From IMG/VR virus record IMGVR_UViG_3300036766_000221, positions 1 to 58,172 of that record: a stretch of 58,172 bases of DNA; one strand, given 5' to 3'. Below are positions 7,334 through 47,198 of this stretch, piece by piece (the stretch's first letter is position 1; each line of letters begins with the position of its first letter). Made by a program: the position numbers and the translations under genes. Origin of the DNA: a virus (taxonomy: Duplodnaviria > Caudoviricetes). The notes under the pieces are model-generated. The model worked only from the letters and a program-made list of their open reading frames with translations. It had not been told where the DNA came from and did no database searches.

Positions 7334-8659
7334 TTACTCCTTCCTTGGCTTGCGTCCGAATTCCCAGCGCTTGGCGGTGCTCGACGCAGTAGCGGTGCTT
7401 GGCGGCGCGGGGGCAGGCGTCGGCTTAGCCATCGCTTCGGCAGTCTCTACCACGGCCAGTAATTGACGGTACGCCGCCTCTCCGTTTTCCGTGGTGAGCG
7501 AAAACGGATCGCAGTCCTGCCCGGTCCCGAAACTCTGCATGAGGCGCGCGTACTCCTTTGGGCCGTTATCCATCGCCTCGACCAAGCGCTTGCGCAGGTC
7601 GAAGAATATGTTGTTGCGGCCCTCTTCGTTGTCCCAAGGGATCGCAGAGATGGGCTTTACGGACGGCTCTGCAGGCGCCGACTGCTCCTGCTGCATCTTG
7701 GCCAACTTTTCTTCCGCAACCTTCGCCGCGGCCTCAACTGAACCGGATGGGTTTTTCCCATCCAGGATCGATTGCCATGTCTCACCTTCCTTCACCGCCG
7801 TGTAGACGCCGCGCAATTCGTTCAGCTCCAGCGACGTGATCTTCGAGACCGAGTGGCCAAGATACATTTGCAGATCGGCGACCGTGATACTCTTCGCGTC
7901 AAACGCCTTCACAATGCGTTCGAGAGCGGCCTCGCTGCTCAGCCCCTTCAGCGTGGCCTGGATCTGCTCTTCGCACTTGTCCAGGATGTCGCCAGGCATG
8001 AATCGGAGCACGTTGCGGATGAATTTGGACCAGGCCGACGCCTGCTTCATTTGCAGCTCGTCTTCCGTCGAAGCCACGATGTAAACCGTGTCGCCATTGG
8101 AGTTTTTCCGCTCGTCCAAGACATCTTTTCCGGCCGGCGGCTCGACGCGCCCGTTTTTCACGTAGCCGCGGCGCTCGACGGTTTTGTTGAGCTGGATCTC
8201 CGAGCAGAGGGGGATGTTGTTTTCGAGGTCAATACACATGAAACGGACGATGCGCTTCCGCTCGTCTTCGTAGACGATCTTGGAATCGCAGAAGACATTC
8301 ATCCACCAGCGCATCGCGGCTTCGGCAAAGCGGATCGACCAGCCCTCGACGAACCCGTTTTCCCATTCATTGGTCTCAGCATTGCGATGGCGTTGCGGCT
8401 TCTTATAGCGCGCGACTTCCGCGAATCCAGGGCGTTCGCATTCCTTCAGAAGACCGGCCTCGAACCTGGAAAGGTTTCGCGGATGCCGTTCCGCCATGAT
8501 GAAGATGGCGCCGATAGTGGCCTTCTCGCGCTCCGCGGTCGCGCTGGCGGCGGTCTCGGCGATCTGCTGAACTTCGGTTGATCCGAAAGTCTGCCGGGTA
8601 ACTTCCTGGCCGAATTCTCGTTTCGCCAGCTCGTCGATGGTTGCGTTAGCAGTACTCAC
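7334..8659 (-). CDS. Putative ssDNA-annealing/recombination protein
   Basis: A...PRN...C.RP.FAE.A.Y...EGWSIRFAE pattern; next to the SMC-like ATPase in the early region. Confidence 0.55.
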   Translation of the reverse strand: MSTANATIDELAKREFGQEVTRQTFGSTEVQQIAETAASATAEREKATIGAIFIMAERHPRNLSRFEAGLLKECERPGFAEVARYKKPQRHRNAETNEWENGFVEGWSIRFAEAAMRWWMNVFCDSKIVYEDERKRIVRFMCIDLENNIPLCSEIQLNKTVERRGYVKNGRVEPPAGKDVLDERKNSNGDTVYIVASTEDELQMKQASAWSKFIRNVLRFMPGDILDKCEEQIQATLKGLSSEAALERIVKAFDAKSITVADLQMYLGHSVSKITSLELNELRGVYTAVKEGETWQSILDGKNPSGSVEAAAKVAEEKLAKMQQEQSAPAEPSVKPISAIPWDNEEGRNNIFFDLRKRLVEAMDNGPKEYARLMQSFGTGQDCDPFSLTTENGEAAYRQLLAVVETAEAMAKPTPAPAPPSTATASSTAKRWEFGRKPRKE

Positions 8660-41984: not shown

Positions 41985-43025
41985 TTAGAGAGAAGCGAGA
42001 ATGGCTCGCGCACGCAAACGGCGGCGCTCATCTTGACTTGAGTCCGGTTGAAATTCCGCAAACTGCTCAGCGGTCAACTTATATTTTGCGCTGTTCTCTT
42101 CGGTAACTTCGATATCGTGTTCTTTGCAGAGTGAGACGAGTTTGCTCCAGGATGCGGCCTTGCTCTCTTCGCTCACACCTTTCAGCTGCTTGAACCGCGC
42201 CAAGGCGTTTTGCAAGTGCGCTTTGGTTTTCTCGTCTGTCGAGAATTTCCACGGCAGCTTCCATGAGCGAATATCCGCGAGACCTCCGACGATCAGAAAT
42301 GCCGCCGCCGGCAGGTCTTCATCGTCCGCCCGTTTGGTCACGGCTTTGGGCTGCGCGCTTCGATCATGCCCTTCACAGTTAACGTCCTCACAGTCTTCGT
42401 TGGTGCAATTCTCGCAATCGCCGTCTTGGCACTCGGGGCACTCACACTCGCAGCTTGCATTGCGTAGCTGTTTAGACCGACGCTCAAGATCATCGGGCAT
42501 GCCATGGGGCCAGAGAGAACGCACGGAGCTGGACGTCGCTGTGCTTGCGGGGGATACGACAGGACTGACGTCATACAAATCGGCATCGAGAATCTTGCGG
42601 GTCGCGCTGACAAAGTTGCCCTTGTCGTCAAACTCGTCGGCCCACTCATCTTTGCGAGCAACGAAGCCAAATGAGGACCCATCGACGTCGCCGCGTTCAA
42701 TGGCGTCTACAACAAACTGGGACCGCTCGTTGGCCGCCGGCTGGCAGTCGTAAGCCAGTCCAATATTGTCTTCGCTCACGGAAAGCGTCTTGGGTGTGCG
42801 GCCAAGGATGAAATTGTCGTCGTGATTGAAAAAGCATCGAACGGCCGCGCCTTCAGCTAGTGTGCGCTTGAACGCGCCGGGTGCAACGACTTCCTTGAAC
42901 CAGCCGACATCGTAGACCACGTTGAACACGGAGGCGTAACCTTTGATGTGAGCCGCGGAGCCATCGGTGCCTCGAATCAATCGGACATCTCCCTTGATTT
43001 GGCGCCGCTCCAGTTTGTCTTTCAT
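41985..43025 (-). CDS. HK97 prohead protease with C-terminal Cys-rich and extra helical domains
   Basis: GYASVF, E.VAPGAF, FNHD, GSSFGF and DVSPV motifs. Confidence 0.92.
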   Translation of the reverse strand: MKDKLERRQIKGDVRLIRGTDGSAAHIKGYASVFNVVYDVGWFKEVVAPGAFKRTLAEGAAVRCFFNHDDNFILGRTPKTLSVSEDNIGLAYDCQPAANERSQFVVDAIERGDVDGSSFGFVARKDEWADEFDDKGNFVSATRKILDADLYDVSPVVSPASTATSSSVRSLWPHGMPDDLERRSKQLRNASCECECPECQDGDCENCTNEDCEDVNCEGHDRSAQPKAVTKRADDEDLPAAAFLIVGGLADIRSWKLPWKFSTDEKTKAHLQNALARFKQLKGVSEESKAASWSKLVSLCKEHDIEVTEENSAKYKLTAEQFAEFQPDSSQDERRRLRARAILASL

Positions 43026-44958
43026 TGGATTGCCTCCTGGCTCGGCTTTGCCGTGCCGTTCTGACGCGCGGCCGCTCGGACCGCGTTGATTGCCATCCTG
43101 AATTCGTTATCGAGCACATCATCGCTGACCTTTGCGCCGGCGAGACGCTTGTGCATCCCGGAAATGTAGACGCCGATGCGGTCCTGAACCTCAGGCGGAG
43201 CCATAGCCTCTTCGGTCGATGCAAAAGCGGCATCCGCAATCGTCATAAGAATCGGCGCGAAAGCCCGGTGAAAGTCCCTTGCATCCGGCTTATTCAGTGC
43301 CTGAAGCCGATTAAAGGCATCGGTAAAGAGCCTTGAATAGCGCTGGGCTGCCTTGTCATCCGCTGCGGGAGAGTTGGGCTCAGCCGTCTGCCCGTCTCCC
43401 GGCTTAGCTGCAAGCGGATGCGCGGCGTCTTGCATGTTGACCGGCATCCAATAAGTTTCCCCAGCCGGACCTTTGATAGGATTCCAATCTAGGAAAAATT
43501 CCCGGATGTCATCCGAATTAGCTATGCCCCACTGTTTCAGAAGGGCAATCAACTTGCCTCGCGATTCCGCATCTGGCGTCAGCAGATCCTGGTAATAGAA
43601 ACCTGGAAAATACTTCCCAGCAGTCCGACCGGTCTTGGGGAATAGCTTGCGCTTTAGTTCCGGCTCCCAGGCTTTGATCCATGGACGCAGGGTATATTGA
43701 ACGAACTCAATCGCTTCCTGCTCCGCAGTCGCCCGATTCGACTTCCCGCCTTCGCCGAGCATACGCTCCGGGACATGAAAAATAGCGCCAATTTCCTGGC
43801 GCTGATGAACGCGCGTTTCCAAAAATTGCGCCTCGTTTGGCTTTACATCAGACTGATGCCAAGTCATCCCGGTTTCGAGCACCATCGGCGTCAGCATGTT
43901 TTCGCCACCTTGGGACTCACGAAGGGACTGTTTGAATGCCTGAATGGCTTCGGGCTTCATCGTGTTCGGTAATTCAACAACGCCGGTAGGCCGAATGCCA
44001 TTGGCGAAGAACTTGCCGGCAAACTTTTCAGTGGCGAGCGACAGACCCATGACCTGGCGCGACAGTTCAACGACGGATTTCGCCAGACGGCCATCGAGTG
44101 AAAGCCCCAGAACATGGAGCATGTTGTCGGCTGATATCAGCCGCTCGGGAGAAGTCCCAGCGCCTCCAAGCCCGGCGCCATCGGTTGTCGTATAAACCAG
44201 TGCTCCCCGTTCCAGCTTTTCATCCCCAACGGTTTGTGCCTCGGTCAAGCGTCGCGGACGTGTGGCATTCGGATCCCTCGGCCAAAGTCCCTTAATGCGA
44301 TTCGCTTGGTCTCTTTCGATTTCTGCATAAGCATTGCCCCACAGGAGCGCGTGGCATTGCAGCGTCTTCATGAACGTGAACCCGGTCATTTCCTTGTTGG
44401 GTTCGTCGTGGAGAATCCAATGAAGATCCTGATCAAAGGCGAGACGCTTGCCGCGCGGCTCCAGTTGCTCGTAGACGTTAAGGTCGAGAGACCCTATGCC
44501 GCCAGAGATCAGATCCACGCAGGTGTAGACCGTTGAAACTTGGAGCGCGGTGAGTTCGGAAACGCGGATACCGGCATCCGTCCGGCCACCGTTGAATCAC
44601 ATTGTTGCGCGGCGCCCGCATCCGACGACGCTCTGCATGTTCCCATGCAGATCAGACTATATCTTCAGTTCGTACACGAACCGCCGCGCGCTTCGGAGTC
44701 GCTGACTCCTACTCCCTCTCGGGATAGTCGTTACACCTTCCCCGGATTTTATCGGGGCTTGGCTCGGTATTGGCCGGTCTGGCGTTCCACCGAGTTCACG
44801 CGGTTACGACACATTCAACTGTTTTGGTTTATGTCGAGTAACCATTCTGCTGGGACATGATATTTATCGAATGGTCACTGCTGTCCCTCCCAGAATTGTT
44901 AGGACAGTGGAGTTGCAGGATTTTCCAAACTACTGCGGAACTGCTTTAAGAAGCCCGT
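43022..44958 (-). CDS. HK97-family portal protein, three exons: join(44958..44901, 44855..44831, 44597..43022), about 552 aa
   Basis: Spliced N-terminus reads GFLKQFRSSLENPATPLS-F-PAEWLLD-I-FNGGRTDAGIRVSELTALQVSTVYTCVDLI, in frame with portal motifs (LLWGNAYA, KFFANG.RP, EAQFLETR). Confidence 0.88.
44598..44830 (-). ncRNA. Group I intron (233 nt, IA-like, no ORF) in the portal gene
   Basis: P1 CGACAU/GUGUCG with U.G; P10 GUUGAAU/AUUCAAC; P3 CCGCGUG/CGCGCGG; P4 CUCGGU/ACCGAG; P7 GACUA/UAGUC; S element AAGAUAUAGUC; P7.1, P7.2, P8, P9; terminal G. Confidence 0.93.
44856..44900 (-). ncRNA. 45-nt core-less group-I-like mini-intron
   Basis: 5' exon ends in U and intron ends in G; P1 CUGUCCU/GGGACAG; P10 CUGGGA/UCCCAG; two in-frame stops; removal restores the portal frame. 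Confidence 0.8.
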
Positions 44959-45428
44959 ATTGTCCTCCCTTCTCCGCTCGCTTTCTTCAAGCGCATCGAA
45001 CGGTTCTTGCTCATTTTGCGCAGCGATTCTTCTGAATGCCGTTTACCTGCATGGCCTCGCGTGCCCGGCTTACCAAACATTGGATTACCAGCCCCACTAA
45101 ACTGCACGCGCAGCTTCTCGCGTCTCGCTTCCGAGATGCCGAACCCGCCCGGCTCCATGTTGTACCCGTGGAGATAATCACAGGACCGATGCACGGCAAT
45201 CAGCGCCGTCTCCTTAGCATTCAGTTCGACATCTGTTTCAGCGGCTTCGATCTGCTCAATCGTGAATGCGTCGGGTCCGTGCTTGCGGATTGCCTGATGA
45301 ATCCGCCACTCGCTGCCGTGGCGCGCAGAATAAACATGGTCGCTCCATCTCCCCTTCAGGCCATTCTTGGTCTGCCCGACATACACCTTGCCGTTCAGCG
45401 TGTTGCGGATCAGATAGATGATGCCCAT
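44946..45428 (-). CDS. Free-standing GIY-YIG homing endonuclease with NUMOD3-like motifs
   Basis: GIIYLIRN..NGKVYVGQT, GYNM..GG, GNPMFGK and GKRHSEES motifs. Confidence 0.92.
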   Translation of the reverse strand: MGIIYLIRNTLNGKVYVGQTKNGLKGRWSDHVYSARHGSEWRIHQAIRKHGPDAFTIEQIEAAETDVELNAKETALIAVHRSCDYLHGYNMEPGGFGISEARREKLRVQFSGAGNPMFGKPGTRGHAGKRHSEESLRKMSKNRSMRLKKASGEGRTIRAS

Positions 45429-45438
45429 GTCTCTAGTT

Positions 45439-45597
45439 TTATTTCGCCGTCACGTACGCATACGCGAACAGCATCGCGCCCGTCAGCAGAATCGCCGCCG
45501 TCAGCGACATGCGAGACGTGCCGTAAACGATGAGTGCCAGGCCGATGGCTCCGACCGCATCTGAGGCCACCAGCGTGGAGCGTGGGAGCTTTTTCAC
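45439..45597 (-). CDS. Small two-TM protein between terminase and portal
   Basis: Hydrophobic; GTG overlaps the terminase stop. Confidence 0.7.
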   Translation of the reverse strand: MKKLPRSTLVASDAVGAIGLALIVYGTSRMSLTAAILLTGAMLFAYAYVTAK

Positions 45598-47198
45598 AGC
45601 ACCACCGGCCCGTGATCGAAGATGCTGGGCGTCCAAGTAGGCGGCGCCACAATTGCCCGGGACATAGCCATAATCAGCGCCACAATTCCGTCAATCCTCT
45701 TCCCGGACTTATTACGGTCTGGCTTGACCGGTCTGACATTGCCGTTCTCGTCCTGGCGGATTGACACACAGTCCGCCATCCAGCGCAATACGGGATTCCC
45801 GCCATGGCTGATTCGATGGCTCACTATGGCTGAAAGCAGTTCCTTGGTGGGCTCAGATAGGGTCCGGTAGCCCTGTCGTATCTCCACCATTTCAAAACCA
45901 TCTTCCTGAAGCTCCTGCGCGAGATGCGCAGCGTTCCATGGGTCAAATCCTACTTGTCCAATTCGCAACCCGCCCACGTCGCGTAGTTCGATCAGCCGTC
46001 GGCGAACGGAAGCGTAGTCTACTACGTTACCCTCGGTGAGCGTCAGCAAGCCTCGGTCCGCCCAGGCTCGATACTTCGTAAATTCCTGGTTTGGACGATC
46101 CCGCAGATTATCCGCAGGCAACCAGAACCATGGCCTAACGTGAAAACTTCCATTATCGTCGCGCGCCACTAGCACCAGCGCCGTAATATCCAGTTTCGTG
46201 GAAAGATCGATCGCCGCATACCAGGACAAATTCTTGACGTCGCGAATATCGACTACCTTGGCGCCGGCGTCCCAGTCCGTCATATCGATGGCCCTGGTTT
46301 CCTGGTTGACCCACTGATTGAGCCTCAGCCGGCGGAACGTGTTCTGCTGTTCTGGGCGTCTTCGCGCGTCGTCGAATTCCTTGCGGATGTCCTCGATCCG
46401 CATCAAACCGTTCTGCAGAAACGGATTGACGGCTGTCCAGACTTCCTCGCTCGTCCAATCGTCTTTCTCTTCGGCCGCGTACATCACCACGTAAAGATGG
46501 TCCGGGCAGGGAATGACGCCCCTCAAGATTTGATCCGCCTCGTCGTGGAGCATCTCCGCAACGGGAGCCTCTCCAGGAATTCCGGCCGTCGTGATGGCAA
46601 ACGTCAAGGGCTGCGACCTGGCCGCGCCAGCGCCGAACGTCAGCACATCCCAGAGGTCCATGTTTTTCTGCGCGTGGACCTCGTCGAAAATGACGCCGTG
46701 GGAGTTGAAACCATGCTTCCCAGCGACCTTGGAAGTCAGGGCACGGTAATAGCTCTCTGACCCCGGAACGACGATCCGCTTGGTGGAGTCCCATATTTTC
46801 GAACGCTTCAGCAGTTTTGGATTGTGCCGCACCATCGAAGCGGCGACCCCAAACACAATGCCGGCCTGGGTGATGTCCGCCGCAGCGCCGTAGATTTCCG
46901 CGCCCGCTTCTGAATCCGCGAATAGGAGCTTGAGAGCAATCCCGGCAGCCTCTTCGGATTTTCCATTTTTTTTAGGAATTTCCTTAAATACCTGTCGAAT
47001 GAGTCGGTTACCGTTCTCGTCCATCCGCCCAAATATTTCCCGGATGTCCAGCTCTTGGTCTTTTGTCGGGTTGAATGGCGCTCCGGCATATCGACCCTTC
47101 GTATGGCGCAGCTCATCTCGAAAGAAGGCGATGGCACGATCCGCGGCGCGCTCGTCAAATCGGCAACCGGCTGGACGTTCAAGTCTGACCTGTCGCAC
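45594..47198 (-). CDS. terL: Terminase large subunit
   Basis: HTKG..AG, PKKNGKS, VIFDEVH, ITTAG, IDLS..D and KRIDG motifs. Confidence 0.95.
   Translation of the reverse strand: MRQVRLERPAGCRFDERAADRAIAFFRDELRHTKGRYAGAPFNPTKDQELDIREIFGRMDENGNRLIRQVFKEIPKKNGKSEEAAGIALKLLFADSEAGAEIYGAAADITQAGIVFGVAASMVRHNPKLLKRSKIWDSTKRIVVPGSESYYRALTSKVAGKHGFNSHGVIFDEVHAQKNMDLWDVLTFGAGAARSQPLTFAITTAGIPGEAPVAEMLHDEADQILRGVIPCPDHLYVVMYAAEEKDDWTSEEVWTAVNPFLQNGLMRIEDIRKEFDDARRRPEQQNTFRRLRLNQWVNQETRAIDMTDWDAGAKVVDIRDVKNLSWYAAIDLSTKLDITALVLVARDDNGSFHVRPWFWLPADNLRDRPNQEFTKYRAWADRGLLTLTEGNVVDYASVRRRLIELRDVGGLRIGQVGFDPWNAAHLAQELQEDGFEMVEIRQGYRTLSEPTKELLSAIVSHRISHGGNPVLRWMADCVSIRQDENGNVRPVKPDRNKSGKRIDGIVALIMAMSRAIVAPPTWTPSIFDHGPVVL

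What the first reader, a model, noticed from the sequence alone, without database searches (positions are those of the whole stretch)
44831..44901. 45-nt core-less mini-intron and 25-nt micro-exon in the portal gene
Seen: the portal N-terminus SLENPATPLS|FPAEWLLDI is interrupted by AACAATTCTGGGAGGGACAGCAGTGACCATTCGATAAATATCATG, which has in-frame TAA and TGA. It has group I splice-site hallmarks: exon ending in U, a 7-bp P1 with the U.G pair, a 6-bp P10 and a terminal G. It has no P3-P8 core. It also contains AGTGACCATTC, complementary over 11 nt to GAATGGTTACT in the micro-exon. Skipping the micro-exon would shift the frame, so both introns must be removed. Inference: a non-autonomous satellite intron spliced by the neighbouring ribozyme core, in cis or in trans. 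I know of no described case in an essential phage gene.
Basis: partly seen in the sequence, partly recalled or inferred. Interest (0 to 1): 0.9.

Follow-up and report, generated by a model that had tools for sequence, protein, structure and literature searches.

The report
Core-less mini-intron in phage portal gene
A 45-base insert that breaks this phage's only portal gene has the splice-site guide helices of a self-splicing group I intron but no catalytic part, so it probably relies on the complete intron 25 bases downstream to be cut out.

Summary
On the minus strand the portal reading frame is broken after 44901 by 45 nt (44900..44856) with in-frame TAA and TGA. A 25-nt micro-exon (44855..44831) follows, then a 233-nt ORF-less group I intron (44830..44598; Rfam 72 bits). 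Intron-less relatives read SLENPxTPLS-[F/Y]-PAEWLLDIFNGGRTD without a gap. Removing exactly these 45 nt and the large intron restores that sequence.

Three divergent phage contigs (portals 41-57% identical) carry homologous inserts of 40, 41 and 44 nt at the same place. Each has:
- a 7-8 bp P1 with a U.G pair at the splice site;
- a directly adjoining 6-8 bp P10;
- a 9-11 bp helix to the micro-exon, with compensatory changes;
- a related full intron 25-27 nt downstream.

Three of the four inserts are not multiples of three, so they must be removed rather than read through.

Best reading (about 0.6): a core-less group I mini-intron spliced by its neighbour's ribozyme. Splicing itself and the dependence on the neighbour are inferred; there are no RNA data.

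My literature searches found no description of this arrangement. This scan has already noted the same kind of element on other phage DNA, including what looks like the 41-nt relative.

The parts
44946..45428 (-). Free-standing GIY-YIG/NUMOD3 homing-endonuclease gene directly upstream of the portal. Its 3' end overlaps the portal start.
   Evidence: Pfam PF01541 E 2e-09 and PF07460 E 3.9e-06. L005 carries a GIY-YIG-like endonuclease gene directly upstream of the portal. An ORF lies in that position in L071, L126, L154 and L079: the L071 ORF has a GIY-YIG-like N-terminus by eye, and none of the relatives' ORFs was scanned against Pfam.
44901..44958 (-). Portal exon 1: 19 codons plus the first base of the split Phe codon. 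It starts at ACG (44958..44956), 5 nt after GGGAGG.
   Evidence: Translation. It aligns with the N-termini MGFLKQFR.SLENPSTPLS of homologues P0007 and P0008. The last 7 nt (44907..44901) form the 5' strand of P1a.
44856..44900 (-). 45-nt core-less mini-intron. It consists of a 7-nt loop, the P10a guide CTGGGA (44893..44888), the P1a guide GGGACAG (44887..44881), the Px strand AGTGACCATTC (44879..44869), a 13-nt tail and a terminal G (44856).
   Evidence: Homologous inserts occur in L071, L126 and L154.
44831..44855 (-). 25-nt micro-exon carrying the last two bases of the Phe codon, PAEWLLD and the first two bases of the Ile codon. It holds the P10a target TCCCAG (44855..44850), the Px 3' strand (44847..44837) and the P1b 5' strand CGACAT (44836..44831).
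   Evidence: The same residues are contiguous in intron-less homologues.
44598..44830 (-). 233-nt ORF-less group I intron with a full core. P10b guide GTTGAAT is at 44819..44813, P1b guide GTGTCG at 44812..44807, and the terminal G at 44598.
   Evidence: RF00028 72 bits, E 2e-17. It is the only group I hit in the 58-kb record. Its core is 79-87% identical to those of L071, L126, L154, L079 and L005.
43022..44597 (-). Portal exon 3 (FNGGRTDAG... to the stop). ATTCAAC (44597..44591) is the P10b target.
   Evidence: Pfam PF04860 E 3.9e-80. It is the only portal-family match in the record.

Best explanation
The 45 nt are a non-autonomous group I-type intron. They keep what defines the splice sites:
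- a P1 hairpin that pairs the end of exon 1 with an internal guide and puts a U.G pair at the 5' splice site;
- a P10 guide directly 5' of it that pairs the first 6 nt of the micro-exon;
- a terminal G.

They have no P3-P9 core.

The 3' half of the insert pairs with the middle of the micro-exon (helix Px). The precursor therefore folds into three consecutive hairpins, P1a, Px and P1b, just in front of the core of the 233-nt intron. This resembles P1-P2-P2.1 of a single larger group I intron.

Proposed pathway (inferred):
1. The neighbour's core docks P1a.
2. Guanosine cleaves after 44901.
3. The G at 44856 enters the G-site and exon 1 is joined to the micro-exon.
4. Px is then gone, P1b docks, and the large intron splices itself.

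The outcome is an uninterrupted portal mRNA.

What is shown: the anatomy, its conservation with compensatory changes, the need for removal, and the single core in the genome. What is inferred: that splicing occurs, that the neighbour is the catalyst, and the order of events.
For: 1. Exact removal of the 45 nt and the 233 nt reproduces the ungapped N-terminus of intron-less homologues. These are L002, L003, L004 and L006, P0003-P0013 and 39 contiguous cases.

2. Exon 1 and the micro-exon still encode residues that match close homologues almost exactly, such as the N-terminus of P0007 (by eye). These pieces therefore appear to be under purifying selection as coding sequence.

3. Homologous inserts in L071 (40 nt), L126 (41 nt) and L154 (44 nt) sit at the same portal site. 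In three of the four the length is not a multiple of three.

4. In 4 of 4 the guide is a contiguous P10+P1 run of 13, 13, 15 and 14 bp with U.G at the 5' splice site. Shuffles reached these values 2, 4, 13 and 68 times in 100000.

5. On alignment A3, 95.8% of cells are paired, against 31-49% when the partners are slid. Four pairs change on both sides, for example P10a CTGGGA:TCCCAG versus CCGGAA:TTCCGG.

6. In L154 the splice site is shifted by one base and the guide has shifted with it, keeping U.G.

7. Helix Px is present in all four (11 of 12, 10 of 11, 11 of 12 and 9 of 9 positions paired). It always lies on micro-exon positions 8-20 and has a 16-21-nt loop that holds the 3' splice site.

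8. Independent MFE folds give the same three hairpins in all four.

9. All four inserts lie 25-27 nt upstream of a related full intron. The window holds only one group I core.

10. Two searches that do not depend on the large intron found only L071 and L126 besides chance hits, and both carry the large intron. These were the mini-guide pattern and the 'stop codon right after the Leu-Ser codons' pattern.

11. Portal proteins of the four are only 41-57% identical, while the intron cores are 82-87% identical. The arrangement has therefore persisted or moved across distant phages.
Against: No RNA evidence of any kind was available.

L126's insert ends in A, not G. That does not fit the terminal G that group I introns use for the second splicing step (recalled).

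The sample is four, and they may share one ancestor. L071, L126 and L154 were first found with a pattern from the large intron, which biases co-occurrence. L154 was found only that way.

If the large intron splices first, the core leaves the transcript and the insert would remain. Nothing I could compute shows that P1a is used first.

In the window the codon aligned with the start Met of homologues is ACG. This could be a sign of a decaying gene.

cmscan's choice of the upstream hairpin as P1 is not evidence. In the insert-less L079 its hit also starts far upstream.
Confidence: 0.6

Rival explanations
1. The mini-intron is an autonomous minimal ribozyme. It would splice itself without the neighbour, as reported for the 67-nt PaSSU intron of Phialophora.
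For: Harris and Rogers 2011 (PMC3160393; abstract and background read) describe 56-81-nt degenerate group I introns. These have P1, P7, P10 and a pairing between the intron middle and the 3' exon, and the authors state that one splices in vitro. The phage inserts share P1, P10 and the pairing to the 3' exon.
Against: The inserts are shorter, at 40-45 nt. After P1a, P10a and Px only 13 nt or fewer remain unassigned in the window. Folds show no P7-like helix that recurs in the four. None was found standing alone.
Confidence: 0.08
2. The insert is removed at the RNA level by something other than the neighbouring core. Candidates are a host or phage protein enzyme, or another ribozyme acting in trans.
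For: Removal is required, but the catalyst is not identified by any search.
Against: The conserved features are the ones group I chemistry uses: U.G in P1, an adjoining P10, and a terminal G in 3 of 4. There is only one group I core and no tRNA gene in the record. I know of no protein-only bacterial pathway that would recognise these signals (from memory).
Confidence: 0.07
3. The insert stays in the mRNA and the ribosome hops over it. This would be programmed translational bypass, like T4 gene 60 or the mitochondrial byp elements.
For: The gap is 40-45 nt. A stop codon directly follows the last full exon-1 codon in 3 of 4. That codon lies in a hairpin.
Against: In 0 of 4 is there a landing codon identical to the take-off codon in the frame that reads PAEW. 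Only L126 has a near-cognate one, and it would add extra residues. L154 has no candidate at all. A Pro-to-Pro hop would delete four conserved residues. Bypass does not explain the U.G pair or the exactly adjoining P10.
Confidence: 0.03
4. Nothing removes it. The portal gene would be broken, or translated only from a start downstream, and the insert would be a decaying intron remnant.
For: ACG stands where homologues have the start Met. L126 has a terminal A. Gene callers take the ORF from 44518.
Against: This is the only portal gene in a record estimated 93% complete. The exon pieces remain intact and conserved. The ORF from 44518 would start inside the conserved segment VYTCVDLISGG. Four divergent phages keep the same pairings through compensatory changes, which decay would not do.
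Confidence: 0.1
5. The 45 nt are an assembly or sequencing artefact.
For: The sequence is a metagenomic contig, and only one run holds it.
Against: A separately assembled contig of that run is identical over 901 nt at depth 11.5. Homologous inserts exist in three other contigs, all with different IMG/VR contig names.
Confidence: 0.01

Closest known systems
Canonical phage and bacterial group I introns (Rfam RF00028; for example several introns in one gene of phage Twort, and mycobacteriophage Cluster J capsid and tail gene introns)
   Same: P1 has U.G at the 5' splice site, an internal guide continues into P10, the insert ends in G, it sits in a conserved part of an essential phage gene, and a homing endonuclease gene is nearby.
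   Different: There is no P3-P9 core and no G-binding site in the 45 nt. It cannot be a ribozyme on its own by the usual definition. The Twort and Cluster J examples come from a review passage, a search listing and memory.
Small degenerate group I introns of fungal nuclear SSU rDNA (Phialophora PaSSU, Arthonia, Porpidia; Harris and Rogers 2011, PMC3160393)
   Same: [quoted passage not shown] The last feature corresponds to Px here.
   Different: The fungal introns are 56-81 nt, retain a P7, stand alone in rRNA genes and are reported to self-splice. The phage inserts are 40-45 nt, show no P7, lie in a protein-coding gene and are always 25-27 nt from a complete intron.
Trans-excision-splicing by engineered group I ribozymes (Dotson, Johnson and Testa 2008, PMC2532722; abstract read)
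   Same: A group I core removes an internal segment from an RNA that has no core of its own and rejoins the flanks.
   Different: That reaction is engineered and the ribozyme supplies the guide. Here the guide lies in the excised segment, the arrangement is natural, and it is presumably in cis.
Tandem and 'zombie' twintrons of fungal and plant mitochondria (passages of PMC12308204 read)
   Same: Two intron modules sit side by side, sometimes separated by a very short exon or pseudo-exon, with stepwise or joint splicing.
   Different: In the cases I read, the modules are described as group I or II modules with their own structure, or the pair is removed as one unit. Here the upstream module has no core and the 25-nt piece between must be kept.
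Collaborative homing: a free-standing endonuclease plus an ORF-less intron (review PMC3984707, passages read)
   Same: A free-standing GIY-YIG gene lies next to an ORF-less intron at the 5' end of the neighbouring gene.
   Different: This concerns DNA mobility, not splicing. The endonuclease's target is unknown here.

Membership tests
Group I intron | 5' exon ends in U, which forms a U.G pair in P1 with an internal guide sequence | tested here: met
   P1a is 7 bp in the window, with T at 44901 opposite the G at 44887, the first base of the guide. U.G is present in 4 of 4 homologous inserts.
Group I intron | The guide continues 5' into P10, pairing the start of the 3' exon | tested here: met
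   P10 is 6 bp in the window and 6-8 bp in the relatives, directly adjoining P1. Two of its pairs change on both sides.
Group I intron | The last intron nucleotide is G | tested here: met
   G at 44856. Also G in L071 and L154, but A in L126.
Group I intron | Catalytic core P3-P9 with a G-binding site in P7 | tested here: not met
   The insert is 45 nt. cmscan finds a single core, at 44830..44598. Folds show only P1a and Px involving the insert.
Group I intron | Guanosine-dependent splicing | not testable with these tools
   No RNA run was listed. This needs an in vitro or in vivo assay.
Degenerate small fungal rDNA group I introns (PaSSU type) | P1, P10 and a pairing of the intron middle with the 3' exon | tested here: met
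   The family description comes from PMC3160393.
Degenerate small fungal rDNA group I introns (PaSSU type) | A retained P7 and stand-alone occurrence | tested here: not met
   No recurring extra helix in the four inserts. All four lie beside a full intron.
Programmed translational bypass (T4 gene 60 type) | Matching take-off and landing codons that restore the downstream frame | tested here: not met
   0 of 4 have an identical landing codon in the PAEW frame.
Twintron spliced as one unit | Both modules and whatever lies between them are removed together | tested here: not met
   Joining exon 1 directly to exon 3 shifts the frame. The 25 nt also encode conserved PAEWLLDI.
Collaborative-homing cassette | A free-standing homing endonuclease gene adjacent to an ORF-less intron | tested here: met
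   GIY-YIG and NUMOD3 at 45428..44946. L005 has a GIY-YIG-like gene in the same position. L071, L126, L154 and L079 have an ORF there that I did not scan against Pfam.
Collaborative-homing cassette | [quoted passage not shown] | not testable with these tools
   This needs a cleavage assay.

The most novel reading that the evidence does not exclude
One ribozyme core serves two introns as a built-in, ordered device. The P1a-Px-P1b module would imitate P1-P2-P2.1, so the core first accepts the satellite's P1. Only after Px is destroyed by that splice would it accept its own P1.

The composite (endonuclease gene, exon 1, mini-intron, micro-exon, full intron) would move as one unit between distant phages by homing with co-conversion.

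The mini-intron would sit where an I-TevI-like GIY-YIG enzyme bound at the large intron's site would cut. That distance is about 23-25 bp upstream in I-TevI (recalled from memory), against a 25-27-nt micro-exon here. The phage would then be protected from its own nuclease at both the binding site and the cleavage site.
Probability: 0.3. Interest if true: 0.88.

Novelty: new variant of a known kind. Interest (0 to 1): 0.78.

Why it matters
Group I introns are defined as self-contained ribozymes. A natural intron that keeps only its splice-site guide and depends on a neighbour's core would be the group I counterpart of non-autonomous mobile elements and degenerate group II introns. It would show that a group I core can accept a foreign P1 helix in nature, something known so far from engineered ribozymes.

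It also matters in practice. Gene callers truncate such portal genes by about 54 residues. A 40-45-nt insert with stop codons looks like a pseudogene or an assembly error.

The four covarying examples give a small, directly testable system of about 450 nt of RNA.

Tried and rejected
RNA evidence. The look-up of sequencing runs listed one DNA run, probably the source, and no RNA holder. The contigs laid cannot show splicing. This says nothing about expression.

More relatives.
It returned only relatives of 46% identity or less, none with an insert.
- The P0018-based scan of viral contigs gave 12 close relatives of P0018, L254-L265. The 11 that include the portal N-terminus are intron-less there. 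L264 is cut before it.
- Proteins P0002, P0014, P0016 and P0018 have truncated or intron-derived N-termini, so more intron-bearing relatives exist. I could not reach their DNA.
- The genome-contig scan gave 33 hits, all chance.

False leads. L346, with a 314-nt gap, is a divergent portal without the PAEW motif. L382 and the eight extra hits lie in unrelated sequence.

Single large intron. I rejected the idea of one large intron running from 44900 to 44598. It would put exon 3 out of frame and delete conserved residues.

Simple inverted duplication. The two antisense segments of the insert are in permuted order relative to the exon, and they covary among relatives.

Alignment limits. The MAFFT alignment A3 misaligns Px by one column in L071, so I counted Px by script and not with the count of structure pairs.

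Literature. Seven searches found no natural core-less group I intron beside a full one. Only open-access papers and preprints are searched, and I opened no supplementary files. Zubaer et al. 2021 and Zumkeller et al. 2020, cited in PMC12308204, were not read.
Full report
**What is there.** The window is a whole IMG/VR virus record of 58172 bp, estimated 93% complete. All coordinates below are on the minus strand. The gene order is:
- large terminase, 47198..45594;
- a small membrane-like ORF;
- a free-standing GIY-YIG/NUMOD3 endonuclease gene, 45428..44946;
- the portal gene;
- a prohead protease.

The portal is the only PF04860 match in the record. Its called ORF starts only at 44518, inside a conserved segment. 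The true 5' end lies upstream in pieces:
- Exon 1 (44958..44901) reads ...GFLKQFRSSLENPATPLS plus one base.
- Then come 45 nt (44900..44856) with in-frame TAA and TGA.
- A 25-nt piece (44855..44831) reads PAEWLLD plus split codons.
- A 233-nt group I intron follows (44830..44598; RF00028, 72 bits, E 2e-17).
- Exon 3 begins at 44597 (FNGGRTDAG...).

- Exon 1 ends in T.
- CTGTCCT pairs with GGGACAG (7 bp, with U.G at the splice site).
- CTGGGA lies immediately 5' of that guide and pairs with the first six bases of the micro-exon.
- The last base of the insert is G.
- AGTGACCATTC pairs with GAATGGTTACT in the micro-exon.

The large intron has its own independent P1 (CGACAT with GTGTCG, U.G at the site), a 7-bp P10 (GTTGAAT with ATTCAAC) and a terminal G. 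A contiguous P10+P1 run as long as the insert's (13 bp) arose in 2 of 100000 shuffles of the insert.

A separately assembled contig of the only run that holds the stretch is identical over 901 nt. That run is probably the source sample.

**The 45 nt must be removed.** Intron-less relatives read SLENPxTPLS, then F or Y, then PAEWLLDIFNGGRTD without any gap. Examples are L002, L003, L004 and L006, the proteins, 11 of the 12 L254-L265 relatives of P0018 (L264 lacks the N-terminus), and 39 further cases. Removing exactly the 45 nt rebuilds a Phe codon from T plus TC and reproduces this sequence with no insertion or deletion.

Exon 1 and the micro-exon match close homologues almost residue for residue. 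They are therefore still under selection as coding sequence.

**Relatives settle whether this is a real element.**
- A pattern from the large intron's core found 103 viral stretches. BLAST and alignment and a motif-spacing script then showed three contigs with a homologous insert at the same portal site: L071 (40 nt), L126 (41 nt) and L154 (44 nt).
- Each insert is followed by a 25-27-nt micro-exon and a related full intron (RF00028 75.5, 63.8 and 61.3 bits).
- Two of these three lengths, and three of all four, are not multiples of three. Read-through or an in-frame insertion is therefore excluded.
- In all four the proposed splice restores the Phe codon.
- All four have a contiguous P10+P1 guide (13, 13, 15 and 14 bp) with U.G at the 5' site.
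- The guide covaries with the exons. P10 is CTGGGA:TCCCAG in the window and L071, CCGGAA:TTCCGG in L126 and GCCGGA:TCCGGC in L154.
- In L154 the splice site lies one base further 3', and the guide has moved with it, keeping U.G.
- On alignment A3, 95.8% of cells pair, against 31-49% for slid partners, and four pairs change on both sides.
- The helix between the insert's 3' half and the micro-exon (Px) is present in all four with different sequences (11 of 12, 10 of 11, 11 of 12 and 9 of 9 paired). It always lies on micro-exon positions 8-20 and leaves a 16-21-nt loop that carries the 3' splice site.
- Separate MFE folds give the same three hairpins, P1a, Px and P1b, in each.

The four portals are only 41-57% identical, while the intron cores are 82-87% identical. 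These are distant phages that share a mobile intron family, not copies of one genome.

**Why the neighbouring core.**
- The insert has no room for a core and shows no recurring helix beyond P1a and Px.
- The record holds one group I core only.
- All four inserts lie 25-27 nt upstream of a full intron. Full introns also occur without the insert (L079 at the same site, L005 ten bases downstream, L389 with another core). No insert was found without a full intron.
- Two searches that do not depend on the large intron recovered only L071 and L126 besides chance hits. The genome collection gave only chance hits.
- The three hairpins sit where P1, P2 and P2.1 would sit in a larger group I intron.
- From memory, group I cores are known to act on P1-like duplexes supplied separately (work of Szostak and Doudna). 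Engineered ribozymes excise internal segments in trans (PMC2532722, abstract).

I therefore propose that the core docks P1a first, splices the insert, and then docks P1b. These steps are inference.

**What speaks against it.**
- There are no RNA data.
- L126's insert ends in A, and no alternative in-frame site in L126 gives a G.
- The sample is four and may descend from one ancestor. Three were first found through the large intron, which biases co-occurrence.
- If the large intron went first, the insert would be stranded.
- In the window, the codon aligned with the initiator Met of homologues is ACG, five bases after GGGAGG. L071 and L126 have ATG.

**Rivals.**
- Ribosomal bypass is unlikely. 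No insert has a landing codon identical to the take-off codon in the right frame, and L154 has no candidate at all.
- A broken gene does not explain compensatory changes in four phages or the intact exon pieces.
- An autonomous mini-ribozyme of the fungal PaSSU kind (PMC3160393) shares P1, P10 and the pairing to the 3' exon. It keeps a P7, which I do not find here, and it stands alone.

**Comparison with what is known.** Group I introns in phage structural genes, several introns in one phage gene, and free-standing endonucleases that mobilise ORF-less introns are all known. The sources are the review PMC3984707 (passages) and the listing. Tandem intron modules with very short exons or pseudo-exons are described in fungal mitochondria (PMC12308204, passages). 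In seven searches I found no natural group I intron that lacks a core and sits beside a complete one.

The element meets the splice-site criteria of the group I family but fails the core criterion. I file it as working like a group I intron, not as a self-sufficient member.

**Earlier notes of this scan.** Searches show that follow-up agents reported core-less mini-introns beside phage group I introns in portal and capsid genes of other genomes. One is a 41-nt insert with a 25-nt exon that shares words with this region and looks like the L126 relative. These notes are unchecked AI notes. One of them led me to the Phialophora paper, which I then read. My conclusions rest on the calls cited above.

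**Verdict.** This is a further, independently covarying example of a non-autonomous group I-type mini-intron. The mechanism is plausible but untested.

Noticed in passing
window 44958..44956 (minus strand): The codon aligned with the initiator Met of close homologues (MGFLKQFR...) is ACG, 5 nt after GGGAGG. The only in-frame ATG, GTG or TTG upstream of the insert is the TTG Leu codon of SLENP at 44928..44926, 35 nt downstream of the GGGAGG. This is either a rare ACG start, possibly coupled to the overlapping endonuclease ORF, or a start-codon mutation. L071 and L126 have ATG.
   Followed up: partly
window 44830/44831; L071 3299/3300; L154 542/543; L005 about 3674: The large intron's insertion site differs between relatives. 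L126 and L079 share the window's site, L071 is at +2, L154 at +3 and L005 at +10 nt. Each has a matching change in its own P1 guide. This suggests intron sliding or repeated re-insertion near one spot.
   Followed up: partly
window 45428..44946 and 44855..44831: L005 has a GIY-YIG-like endonuclease gene directly upstream of the portal, as the window does. L071, L126, L154 and L079 have an ORF in that position, which I did not check against Pfam. The 25-27-nt spacing of the two insertion sites resembles the distance between the binding and cleavage sites of I-TevI-type enzymes (recalled from memory, not tested).
   Followed up: no
L126 5874 (minus strand): The 41-nt relative ends in A instead of G, while its P10 is the longest of the four at 8 bp. 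This could be a slower or defective copy, or a compensated one.
   Followed up: partly
L400 about 7650-7680: A related intron-less portal has one extra T in a T run inside the PAEWLLD codons, which shifts the frame. It may be a sequencing error or a slippery site.
   Followed up: no
L389 about 7700-7960: A related portal carries a roughly 240-nt insert at the same site as L154's large intron, with a similar P1 guide. Its interior is different and Rfam does not score it at the gathering threshold.
   Followed up: no
window 45636..45439 (minus strand); L071 2167..2394: A small two-helix membrane-like ORF lies between the terminase and the endonuclease gene. Its C-terminus (...LFAYAYVTAK / ...LFLYAYMTAK) is conserved between the window and L071.
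   Followed up: no
proteins P0002, P0014, P0016, P0018: Database portal proteins about 60% identical to this one start at or just after the intron site. P0018 begins with a read-through of an intron 3' end. Intron-bearing relatives are therefore commoner than the four I could read, and they are annotated as truncated portals.
   Followed up: partly
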